Shown here piece after piece: positions 8,609 to 9,173 of a stretch of DNA of 38,964 bases. The stretch lies in the UHGV virus genome UHGV-0287902; one strand, written 5' to 3'. Each line of letters begins with the position of its first letter. The stretch's first letter is position 1. Both the position numbers and the translations under genes were made by a program. A model generated the notes under the pieces. It saw only the letters and a list, made by a program, of their open reading frames with translations. It searched no databases and was not told the origin of the DNA. The stretch is from a virus.

Positions 8609-8896
8609 ATGGAAAAAGAAATCAAATTTGCGCCTAAATCTATCGACGAAGAACTGGCTAAAATCGGCATGCTTGAACGTATGCGGGACATTATCGAATA
8701 TGCGATAAAAGAAAATCTTGCAGCCAGAGAAGCCCTTTTGATAATGGAGCGGGAGATTAACCTGATTAAGGATGCTGTATCTCTGGATAATAAAATAGCC
8801 CGCGAGGAATACGTTCGCCGTAGGCTCGGTGTTGATGGTTCAGCAATTCTTACATCTGAACATTATGCAAAAATTTTTAATCTTTTTCAGCGGTAA
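8609..8896 (+). CDS. hypothetical coiled-coil protein
   Basis: 95 aa from ATG 8609 with GAGGA upstream; track ORF begins 8594. Confidence 0.55.
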   Translation: MEKEIKFAPKSIDEELAKIGMLERMRDIIEYAIKENLAAREALLIMEREINLIKDAVSLDNKIAREEYVRRRLGVDGSAILTSEHYAKIFNLFQR

Positions 8897-9116
8897 TCCC
8901 CATACAGGCCCGGAGATTGTCGAAATGCCAGTCGGTATTAATATATGAGCCATCCTGGATATCTTCTGCATTTTCCGGGGTAGAGTTTTTTTGAGCGAGA
9001 TTGATAATATGTATTGCCTCCTCACGGGAAATCAGCCCCTTATCGAACAGGGTTACCATAAGATTTCCAGCCATTGTGAATGCGGCAACATCAAGTGCAT
9101 TTTTTATATCTGACAT
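8877..9116 (-). CDS. counter-oriented small protein, candidate moron
   Basis: 79 aa; AAGGA 7 nt upstream of ATG; 3' end overlaps + gene by 20 bp. Confidence 0.5.
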   Translation of the reverse strand: MSDIKNALDVAAFTMAGNLMVTLFDKGLISREEAIHIINLAQKNSTPENAEDIQDGSYINTDWHFDNLRACMGITAEKD

Positions 9117-9144
9117 AGATTTTTCCTTTTATGTTAATTGACAT

Positions 9145-9173
9145 GGCGGTGCGGTAACACCGCCCATTTTTTA
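9145..9173 (+). terminator. intrinsic terminator hairpin upstream of gemA
   Basis: GGCGGTG-cggtaa-CACCGCC followed by CATTTTTTAT. Confidence 0.55.

What the first reader, a model, noticed from the sequence alone, without database searches (positions are those of the whole stretch)
8877..9173. Counter-oriented small gene embedded at the end of the early operon
A 79-aa minus-strand ORF has a well-placed AAGGA RBS, overlaps the last + early ORF by 20 bp and is followed on the + strand by a GC-rich hairpin with a T-run. A lone opposite-strand gene inside a phage operon is the typical signature of a lysogeny-expressed moron or a toxin/regulator under antisense control.
Basis: partly seen in the sequence, partly recalled or inferred. 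Interest (0 to 1): 0.5.

Follow-up and report, generated by a model that had tools for sequence, protein, structure and literature searches.

The report
Mu gene-15 homolog, counter-oriented small gene
The backward-facing 79-codon reading frame is a real, conserved gene, a distant relative of the uncharacterised gene 15 of phage Mu, and it always travels as a tail-to-tail pair with the neighbouring early gene 14; it is already annotated, and its function is still unknown.

Summary
A 79-aa minus-strand ORF (8877-9116) has an AAGGA Shine-Dalgarno 7 nt upstream and a 20-bp convergent overlap with the preceding + strand gene. A GC-rich hairpin plus T-run lies at 9145-9172.

The window is a Mu-like E. 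coli prophage. The ORF sits between a gp14 homolog and gemA/mor, so it is inside the early region rather than at its very end.

It is a genuine protein gene:
- dN/dS is about 0.22.
- It is the only frame open in ten diverged lineages.
- The Shine-Dalgarno is conserved.
- Two sequence motifs persist at 20-50% identity.

It belongs to the same small family as Mu gp15 (RefSeq Mup15), SfMu_16 and an unannotated D108 ORF. PGAP already calls it a hypothetical protein.

New here:
- The gp15-like gene co-occurs with the gp14-like gene almost without exception. The two are always convergent and 3'-overlapping.
- The pair is exchanged as a unit. Mu and D108 share 96% GemA identity but only 35% for gp14 and 19% for gp15.
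- Close relatives carry a different counter-oriented gene (DUF2513) in the same slot, or none.

The protein is a small, acidic, soluble three-helix bundle with no informative homolog. No promoter could be identified. Expression timing and function are inferred, not shown. Interest is modest.

The parts
8877..9116 (-). gp15-family CDS (79 aa; identical to RefSeq WP_001280088.1 'hypothetical protein')
   Evidence: ORF. PGAP annotates the identical segment. phrog_32893 hit at E 1.3e-45. dN/dS 0.22. It is the only frame open in 10 lineages.
9124..9128 (-). Shine-Dalgarno AAGGA, 7 nt upstream of the ATG
   Evidence: Read from the sequence. An equivalent AGGA/GGAG sits at the same distance in all lineages compared.
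8609..8896 (+). gp14-like early gene (95 aa; Mu gp14/E15 homolog, phrog_6075), the convergent partner of the gp15-like gene
   Evidence: phrog_6075 hit at 6.3e-44. 49% identity to Mu gp14 by tblastn. PGAP start is at 8609. Co-occurrence with gp15 is shown.
8877..8896 (.). 20-bp convergent 3' overlap of the gp14-like and gp15-like genes
   Evidence: The overlap is kept in every lineage where both gene ends were read: 32 bp in L039, L042, L045 and L051; 41 in L046; 53 in D108; 62 in Mu and SfMu.
8959..8999 (-). Hypervariable linker (aa 40-53), containing an A7 run (8986-8992 on the + strand as T7)
   Evidence: 17 of 41 nt differ between the two E. coli alleles, against about 3% in the rest of the gene. 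Database variants are frameshifted in this linker into an alternative open C-terminal frame.
9145..9172 (+). 7-bp GC-rich inverted repeat/hairpin with T6 tail, between the gp15 start and the gemA Shine-Dalgarno. It looks like a terminator on the + strand only.
   Evidence: Terminator scan. The stem is conserved in 9 lineages with one compensatory change and a variable loop. It is present only where a counter-oriented gene precedes gemA. It is unique in the window.
9187..9699 (+). gemA homolog, divergent neighbour 70 nt from the gp15 start
   Evidence: Pfam GemA hit at 1.8e-28. The gap is 65-71 nt in all lineages where gemA is adjacent.

Best explanation
SHOWN.
- The ORF is a functional protein-coding gene of the phage Mu gene-15 (Mup15) family.
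- The product is a small (73-119 aa), mostly acidic, soluble three-helix protein. It carries an N-terminal motif FDxAAFxLAGNxLxxLxxKGxIxxxEA, and in this subfamily a C-terminal motif DWH(L/F)DNLxA.
- In Mu-like phages it is always encoded against the direction of the early operon. It lies tail-to-tail with, and overlaps, the 3' end of the early gene 14 homolog.
- It usually sits 65-71 nt from the start of gemA, behind a conserved hairpin.
- gp14 and gp15 are gained, lost and exchanged together as one fast-evolving accessory cassette.

INFERRED.
- Early (Pe-type) transcription runs straight through gp15 in antisense, and the two mRNAs are complementary at their 3' ends. The gene can therefore be productively expressed only when early transcription is off or weak, that is in the prophage or at the very start of infection.
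- It would be shut down by transcriptional interference and antisense pairing once the lytic programme fires.
- The protein has no enzymatic or DNA-binding signature and most likely works by binding another protein.
- Its obligate linkage to gp14 makes gp14, or gp14's target, the most likely partner. On this reading gp15 sets or buffers gp14 activity in the non-lytic state.
For: Coding:
- dN/dS 0.22.
- Only the minus frame is open in 10 lineages.
- The Shine-Dalgarno is conserved.
- PGAP, RefSeq Mu, SfMu and Mu_3F6 all annotate it.

Family:
- phrog_32893 hits the window protein at 1.3e-45, and hits D108 and Mu gp15 at 5.4e-7 and 5.9e-4.
- BLASTP of the window protein against the D108 ORF gives 2e-6.
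- A profile search of 1.84 billion representatives returns only 24 small proteins sharing the motifs.

Synteny and cassette:
- Six distant homologs sit in the same counter-oriented, gp14-overlapping position. In five of them gemA is the immediate divergent neighbour; in L046 two other genes lie between.
- gp14 and gp15 are present together or absent together in the roughly 50 loci, including the window. P0034 (L043/L044), on contigs of about 600 bp with no matching context, cannot be judged.
- 13 of 14 evaluable gp14-positive viral contigs also carry gp15.
- Pairwise identities of gp14 and gp15 correlate at r = 0.78, against 0.41 for gp15 and GemA. Mu and D108 share 96% GemA identity but only 35% for gp14 and 19% for gp15.

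Protein:
- AlphaFold2 pLDDT 76.7, rising to about 90 over residues 10-40, with three helices.
- No transmembrane-grade hydrophobic stretch in most members, and net charge -7.

Accessory nature:
- The same slot holds different cargo in close relatives.
- GC is 40-44% against 50-60% in the flanks.
- A natural deletion and frameshifted copies exist.
Against: - There are no expression data of any kind.
- No sigma-70 promoter above chance was found upstream, and there is no terminator on the gene's own strand.
- Co-inheritance of two adjacent overlapping genes could reflect linkage alone rather than functional coupling.
- One contig (L056) keeps gp14 but has lost gp15. Several database copies are frameshifted in the C-terminal half. 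gp15 is therefore not strictly required wherever gp14 is present.
- Fold searches gave only generic helical-bundle matches.
Confidence: 0.5

Rival explanations
1. An independent lysogenic-conversion or superinfection-exclusion/defence 'moron'. The gene is expressed from its own promoter in the prophage and acts on incoming phages or on the host. It has no functional tie to gp14; the pairing is just linkage.
For: - It is counter-oriented, AT-rich, fast-evolving and dispensable.
- In near-identical backbones the same slot carries a different counter-oriented gene (DUF2513) that also overlaps the 3' end of its upstream neighbour.
- There is precedent for counter-strand exclusion genes in transposable Pseudomonas phages (PMC9936078).
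Against: - There is no PADLOC hit.
- No recognisable promoter or own-strand terminator was found.
- There is no membrane or secretion signal of the kind typical of exclusion proteins.
- gp14 and gp15 co-occur almost perfectly and are swapped together.
Confidence: 0.25
2. The role is mainly cis-acting. Leftward transcription through this cassette, together with the terminator-like hairpin at 9145-9172, throttles or delays read-through of early transcription into gemA-mor. That would time the early-to-middle switch. The encoded protein is secondary.
For: - The hairpin with a pyrimidine-rich tail is conserved directly before the gemA Shine-Dalgarno. It is present only when a counter-oriented gene precedes gemA, whatever that gene is.
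- A second terminator-like hairpin precedes mor.
- In the updated GenBank record of Mu, a separate 'semi-early' promoter is annotated on this intergenic region.
Against: - The protein sequence is under purifying selection, and its motifs are conserved at 20-40% identity. A purely cis-acting role does not explain this.
- The T-tail is weak in Mu and D108.
- No leftward promoter was identified.
Confidence: 0.12
3. A type I toxin-antitoxin-like module. On this reading gp15 is a small toxic peptide, or gp14 is, and it is held in check by the 3'-overlapping antisense transcript of its partner.
For: The convergent 3' overlap of 20-62 nt is maintained in all lineages where both ends were read. The first helix is fairly hydrophobic.
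Against: - Kyte-Doolittle 19-residue maxima are mostly below 1.6. The protein is acidic and is predicted to be a soluble three-helix bundle.
- Both partners are conserved proteins of about 80-100 aa. This is not a peptide plus a non-coding RNA.
- A natural gp15 deletion with gp14 intact exists.
- Frameshifted gp15 copies exist; their gp14 context was not examined.
Confidence: 0.05
4. It is not a gene. It is a shadow ORF on the strand opposite to a real + strand gene or to a non-coding spacer, as the updated GenBank Mu record implies by annotating + strand Mu_54 instead.
For: AF083977 annotates a + strand 55-aa ORF (Mu_54) in the homologous Mu interval and no minus-strand gene. The window contains many long shadow ORFs.
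Against: - The + frames are interrupted in most lineages, and Mu_54 has no homolog outside Mu and SfMu.
- The minus frame is open everywhere, with a Shine-Dalgarno, dN/dS 0.22 and conserved motifs.
Confidence: 0.02

Closest known systems
Phage Mu gene 15 (Mup15, NP_050619.1), together with SfMu_16 and the D108/Mu_3F6 119-aa ORF
   Same: - Same position (between gene 14 and gemA) and same counter-orientation.
- Same 3' overlap with gene 14, and about 70 nt to the gemA start across the same hairpin.
- Shared N-terminal helix-turn-helix-shaped motif.
- Profile-level homology.
   Different: - Only 19-29% identical, so pairwise BLAST to Mu gp15 fails.
- The C-terminal third differs: a DWH(L/F)DNL helix here, against an acidic tail in Mu and a long acidic N-terminal extension in D108.
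- No function is known for any member.
Morons of temperate phages (an independently transcribed accessory gene inserted in an operon, such as lambda lom/bor; from general knowledge)
   Same: It is an accessory, compositionally distinct, exchangeable gene in a fixed slot of a phage operon, and is plausibly expressed in the prophage.
   Different: A classical moron carries its own promoter and a downstream terminator. Neither was found here. The unit exchanged here is a two-gene cassette, one half of which belongs to the lytic operon.
Lambda OOP RNA/cII and 3'-overlap type I toxin-antitoxin pairs (TxpA/RatA type; from general knowledge)
   Same: A counter-oriented transcription unit whose 3' end is complementary to the 3' end of an early gene. 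This gives scope for RNase III-mediated or interference-based mutual control.
   Different: Here the antisense partner encodes a conserved 79-aa protein rather than a non-coding RNA. The protein has no toxin-like hydrophobic peptide character.
Counter-strand overlapping exclusion genes olg1/gene 10 of Pseudomonas transposable phage Fc02 (PMC9936078)
   Same: It is a transposable (Mu-like) phage in which genes on the strand opposite to the early operon are expressed in the lysogen and overlap an early gene.
   Different: The location differs (next to the repressor and ner, not gemA), the proteins are unrelated, and the overlap there is complete rather than a 3' tail overlap.
SHOCT / SHOCT-like short helical domains (Pfam PF09851, PF20612, PF22746)
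   Same: The L-x2-L-x3-G-x-I-(T/S)-x2-E motif of residues ~20-40 gives weak hits, each on one to three of the 21 family members scanned.
   Different: All hits are below the Pfam gathering score (best 18.6 bits against 27). The window protein itself gives no hit. This is a resemblance only.

Membership tests
Mu gp15 (Mup15) family; PHROGs 32893 / 8747 / 38610 | Significant sequence similarity to independently built family profiles | tested here: met
   The window protein hits phrog_32893 at 1.3e-45. The same profile hits the D108 ORF at 5.4e-7 and Mu gp15 at 5.9e-4. BLASTP of the window protein against D108 gives 2e-6. Direct BLASTP to Mu gp15 is not significant, so the link to Mu itself is profile-level only.
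Mu gp15 (Mup15) family; PHROGs 32893 / 8747 / 38610 | Position and orientation: counter to the early operon, between gene 14 and gemA, overlapping the 3' end of gene 14 | tested here: met
   Window. Mu, SfMu and D108. Distant members.
Mu gp15 (Mup15) family; PHROGs 32893 / 8747 / 38610 | Shared fold or biochemical function | not testable with these tools
   No member has a solved structure or a known function. The AlphaFold2 model is a three-helix bundle with only generic matches.
Moron (autonomous accessory transcription unit) | Own promoter upstream and factor-independent terminator downstream on its own strand | tested here: not met
   There is no minus-strand terminator in 8300-9800. The only promoter-like sites are at chance level. 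The weak hairpin after the stop codon has z = -0.66. Consensus scans cannot exclude a non-canonical or activator-dependent promoter.
Moron (autonomous accessory transcription unit) | Presence or absence, or replacement, between otherwise near-identical phages, with deviant base composition | tested here: met
   Loci with 85-100% identical GemA carry gp14+gp15, DUF2513, or co-oriented genes. GC is 40-44% against 50-60% in the flanks.
Type I toxin-antitoxin with 3' antisense overlap | Small hydrophobic, membrane-active toxin peptide | tested here: not met
   The Kyte-Doolittle 19-residue maximum is 1.27 for the window protein. Net charge is -7. The model is a soluble helical bundle.
Type I toxin-antitoxin with 3' antisense overlap | Convergent transcripts complementary at their 3' ends | tested here: inconclusive
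   The genes overlap by 20 bp, but no transcript ends are known.
SHOCT domain (Pfam) | Score at or above the Pfam gathering threshold | tested here: not met
   The best family member scores 18.6 bits against a cut-off of 27. The window protein gives no hit.
Known anti-phage defence proteins (PADLOC-DB) | Match to any defence-system model | tested here: not met
   There are no hits at E <= 1 for the window, Mu or D108 proteins, or for the DUF2513 alternative cargo.
Intrinsic (Rho-independent) terminator, for the hairpin at 9145-9172 | GC-rich stem of at least 5 bp, a short loop, and a T-run immediately 3' | tested here: met
   The stem has 7 pairs (6 of them G-C), the loop is 6 nt, and T6 starts 2 nt after the stem. 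The stem is conserved in 9 lineages, but the tail is weak in Mu and D108. Actual termination is not testable here.

The most novel reading that the evidence does not exclude
gp14/gp15 is a previously unrecognised kind of two-gene phage cassette. One partner is transcribed with the lytic early operon and the other against it, and the two are locked together by a 3' antisense overlap. The transcription state of the prophage would then flip which protein is made. The pair evolves and is swapped as a specificity unit, like an effector with its antidote or an exclusion/anti-exclusion pair. This would explain why it is one of the segments that differ sharply between Mu and D108.
Probability: 0.15. 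Interest if true: 0.6.

Novelty: new member of a known kind. Interest (0 to 1): 0.3.

Why it matters
Phage Mu is a reference system, yet gene 15 has no assigned function. In the early-region stretches examined here it is the only gene that reads against the early operon. The current GenBank Mu record has even replaced it with a + strand ORF.

This analysis shows three things:
- The counter-strand gene is the real one.
- Three separate PHROG families (32893, 8747, 38610) are one family.
- The gene is inherited and exchanged together with gene 14.

That gives a concrete, testable handle on two orphan genes of the Mu semi-essential region. The test is to delete or express gp14 and gp15 separately and together, in lysogens and during induction. 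For genome annotation, the result argues for restoring gene 15 in Mu and for annotating it in D108. Beyond that, the finding is an ordinary uncharacterised accessory gene.

Tried and rejected
- Pfam, NCBIfam and PADLOC scans of the protein and of 21 family members gave nothing at family thresholds. Only sub-threshold SHOCT-like hits appeared.
- A PDB sequence-profile search found nothing meaningful.
- Rfam found no family in 8300-9900.
- A transmembrane-toxin reading was rejected on hydropathy and charge.
- Sigma-70 promoter search, by consensus scan and by my own weight-matrix scan across 9 lineages:
  - No site scored above shuffled controls.
  - A recurrent weak candidate, with its -35 in the hairpin loop and its -10 ending 12-14 nt before the ATG, would exclude the conserved Shine-Dalgarno from the mRNA. 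I do not adopt it.
  - A recurrent site inside gemA is explained by conserved codons.
- The hairpin as a Mor/C-type activator site was rejected. Its distance to either start codon does not fit a -43.5 centre (reasoned).
- The inverted repeat is not a dispersed motif. It is unique in the window.
- Two scans of species-representative genomes found no relatives. Several alignments were too divergent to make scan patterns. The host range of the distant members therefore remains unknown.
- Literature searches found no functional study of Mu gene 15. The paper cited for the Mu 'semi-early promoter' (PMID 9454718) is not held.
- The + strand Mu_54 reading was rejected.

Full report
**What is there.**
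The window is a Mu-like transposable prophage. A transposase-size ORF (1416-3506) and a B-size ORF (3578-4510) are followed by small early genes. These include a gp11 homolog at 6539-7072, then GemA (9187-9699), Mor (9770-10192) and a lysozyme. The flagged ORF is exactly as described:
- It spans 8877-9116 on the minus strand, 79 aa, with an ATG start.
- AAGGA lies 7 nt upstream of the start.
- It overlaps by 20 bp the + strand gene that ends at 8896.
- The hairpin GGCGGTG-CGGTAA-CACCGCC (9145-9164) with T6 (9167-9172) meets an intrinsic-terminator pattern on the + strand.

The hairpin lies between the ORF's start and gemA, on the ORF's 5' side. The ORF is inside the early region, not at its end.

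**Is it a gene?**
Length alone proves nothing, because the window is full of 90-120-aa shadow ORFs. Conservation does prove it.
- Between the two E. coli alleles (92-93% DNA identity) the differences fall 8/5/14 on codon positions 1/2/3, and dN/dS is about 0.22.
- In ten lineages whose proteins are only 17-56% identical, the minus frame is the only one open across the whole interval.
- Every lineage has a Shine-Dalgarno at the same distance.
- NCBI's pipeline already annotates the identical sequence as hypothetical protein WP_001280088.1.
- The segment occurs in 20 of 5,426 complete E. coli genomes, always on the chromosome.

**What family?**
- The protein matches phrog_32893 at 1.3e-45.
- At the homologous position Mu has an 88-aa minus-strand ORF and D108 a 119-aa one. 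The same PHROG profile hits them at 5.9e-4 and 5.4e-7.
- BLASTP of the window protein against the D108 ORF gives 2e-6 over the N-terminal 33 residues.
- RefSeq Mu (NC_000929) annotates this ORF as Mup15/gp15. SfMu has SfMu_16 and Mu_3F6 has VUD37876.
- The updated GenBank Mu record (AF083977) instead carries a + strand ORF, Mu_54. That ORF has no counterpart outside Mu and SfMu, and its frame is closed elsewhere, so I regard it as a shadow.
- A profile search of 1.84 billion representative proteins found only 24 clusters, all 60-119 aa.
- Their alignment shows an N-terminal motif FDxAAFxLAGNxLxxLxxKGxIxxxEA. In the window's subfamily there is also a C-terminal DWH(L/F)DNLxA helix. This second motif shows that the annotated frame is the functional one, not the frameshifted variants seen in some database entries.

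**Context is the most informative result.**
Six distant homologs with usable context (P0025, P0026, P0027, P0033, L050, L051) lie in Mu-like early regions, counter-oriented, overlapping the 3' end of a gp14 homolog. In five of them gemA starts 65-71 nt from the gp15 start on the other strand. In L046 gemA is two genes away, but the gp14/gp15 pair is intact. A seventh, P0034, sits on contigs of about 600 bp, co-oriented with an unidentified neighbour, and cannot be judged.

Evidence that the pair behaves as one unit:
- In the roughly 50 loci, including the window, gp14-like and gp15-like genes are present together or absent together; the P0034 contigs (L043/L044) cannot be judged.
- Of 14 evaluable gp14-positive viral contigs, 13 have gp15. 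The exception, L056, is a clean ~220-bp deletion of gp15.
- Pairwise identities of gp14 and gp15 correlate at r = 0.78, against 0.41 for gp15 and GemA.
- Mu and D108 share 96% GemA identity but only 35% for gp14 and 19% for gp15. The pair was therefore exchanged as a unit between near-identical backbones.
- gp15 is the fastest-evolving of the three, with mean identity 35%.

**The slot.**
Loci whose GemA is 85-100% identical to the window's carry other contents upstream of gemA.
- Some have a counter-oriented 136-aa DUF2513 protein that also overlaps the 3' end of its upstream neighbour.
- Others have co-oriented genes translationally coupled to gemA.
- The GC-rich inverted repeat is present whenever the upstream gene is counter-oriented, whether of the gp15 family or DUF2513, and absent otherwise.
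- Its 7-bp stem is almost invariant over nine lineages, with one compensatory T-A to C-G change and one G-U. The loop varies, and a pyrimidine-rich tail runs into the gemA Shine-Dalgarno.
- The repeat is unique in the window.
- The gp13-gp15 stretch is AT-richer (40-44% GC) than its flanks (50-60%).

**The protein.**
- With a 21-sequence alignment, AlphaFold2 gives pLDDT 76.7 (about 90 for residues 10-40). The helices are 2-25, 31-44 and 62-71.
- Helix 1 is hydrophobic, but in most members below transmembrane grade. The protein is acidic, with net charge -7.
- Pfam, NCBIfam and PADLOC give nothing above threshold. A few members give sub-threshold SHOCT-like hits on the KGxIxxxE turn.
- The central linker (aa 40-53; 8959-8999) is hypervariable and contains an A7 run. 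Several database copies are frameshifted in this linker into an alternative open frame.

**Expression.**
This is the weak point. I found no sigma-70 promoter above chance and no terminator on the gene's strand. No known RNA family matches the region. No literature on gene 15 was found. The Mu record places a 'semi-early promoter' for gemA on this intergenic region, but the source paper is not held.

**Most likely mechanism.**

*Shown:*
- It is a conserved protein gene of the Mu gp15 family.
- It is one half of a co-inherited, convergently overlapping gp14-gp15 accessory cassette.

*Inferred:*
- Early transcription traverses it in antisense, and the 3' ends are complementary. It would therefore be expressed when the early operon is silent (prophage, pre-early) and silenced on induction.
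- As a small acidic helical protein with no catalytic or DNA-binding signature, it probably acts by binding a partner. Given the linkage, gp14 or gp14's target is the best candidate.

I give this composite reading about 0.5.

*Rivals:*
- An autonomous lysogenic-conversion or exclusion moron unrelated to gp14 (0.25).
- A mainly cis-acting interference or attenuation device for gemA-mor timing (0.12).
- A type I toxin-antitoxin-like module (0.05).
- A non-coding shadow ORF (0.02).

**Comparison and novelty.**
It is a divergent member of an already annotated but uncharacterised family (Mu gene 15).
- It resembles morons in being exchangeable and compositionally distinct, but it fails the promoter-plus-terminator definition.
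- It resembles lambda OOP/cII or 3'-overlap type I toxin-antitoxin pairs in geometry, but the antisense partner here is a conserved protein.
- New here are the unification of three PHROGs, the gp14-gp15 cassette behaviour, the link between the hairpin and counter-oriented cargo, and the evidence against the Mu_54 annotation.

None of this is startling, so interest is modest (0.3).

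Noticed in passing
L001 (Mu AF083977) 2933-3100 (+) versus 2869-3135 (-); record 7960-8127 versus 7896-8162: The updated GenBank Mu record annotates a + strand 55-aa ORF (Mu_54) where RefSeq Mu has minus-strand gene 15. Only the minus frame is open in all ten lineages, and Mu_54 has no homolog outside Mu and SfMu. It is probably a shadow ORF. D108 (GQ357916) leaves its 119-aa homolog unannotated.
   Followed up: yes
window 9145-9172; also L001 3166-3185, L002, L007, L039, L042, L045, L050, L051: The inverted repeat GGCGGTG-N6-CACCGCC has stems that stay almost invariant in sequence, while GemA next to it drops to 42-57% identity. The loop is variable. The repeat is present only when the gene upstream of gemA is counter-oriented. 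Such sequence invariance would also fit a protein-binding site, not just an RNA hairpin. Its role is unresolved.
   Followed up: partly
L006 (E. coli 2012EL-2448, NZ_CP027586.1) about 1856-2623: An IS1A element is inserted in the hairpin between the gp15-like gene and gemA. The apparent 9-bp target duplication corresponds to window 9145-9154.
   Followed up: no
window 9704-9735 and 9736-9769: A second terminator-like hairpin (9-bp stem plus T-run) lies in a 70-nt gap between gemA and mor, whereas in Mu these genes overlap. The mor Shine-Dalgarno region is predicted to pair with upstream sequence (z = -2.5). With a TGTGTAATG element about 45 nt downstream of the dyad centre, this could be a separate, possibly activator-type, promoter for mor.
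   Followed up: no
window 9770-10764: Mor is followed directly by the lysozyme gene. tblastn with Mor finds no second Mor/C-family paralog anywhere in the window, whereas Mu has separate Mor and C activators.
   Followed up: partly
L007 2026-2436 (-), likewise L012, L013, L036; remnant in L009: The same slot in backbones with 84-100% identical GemA holds a counter-oriented 136-aa DUF2513-like protein (phrog_585). It overlaps by 39 nt the 3' end of a truncated upstream early gene, and is followed by a variant hairpin, GGCGGC-N8-GCCGCC.
   Followed up: partly
window 8959-8999 (aa 40-53 of the gp15-like protein), A7 run at 8986-8992: 17 of 41 nt differ between the two E. coli alleles in this linker, against about 3% elsewhere in the gene. 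Several database proteins (P0005, P0007-P0010) are frameshifted in this linker into an alternative frame that stays open for about 45 codons and is itself similar between entries. This could be decay, assembly error or a real alternative C-terminus; it is undecided.
   Followed up: partly
L056 about 1800-1930: A Mu-type viral contig has a clean ~220-bp deletion that removes most of gene 15. Gene 14, the hairpin and gemA remain intact.
   Followed up: partly
window 8464-8607 (+): A 47-aa four-cysteine zinc-ribbon ORF (phrog_5584, Mu gp13 position) lies directly upstream of the gp14-like gene and shares the low-GC stretch.
   Followed up: no
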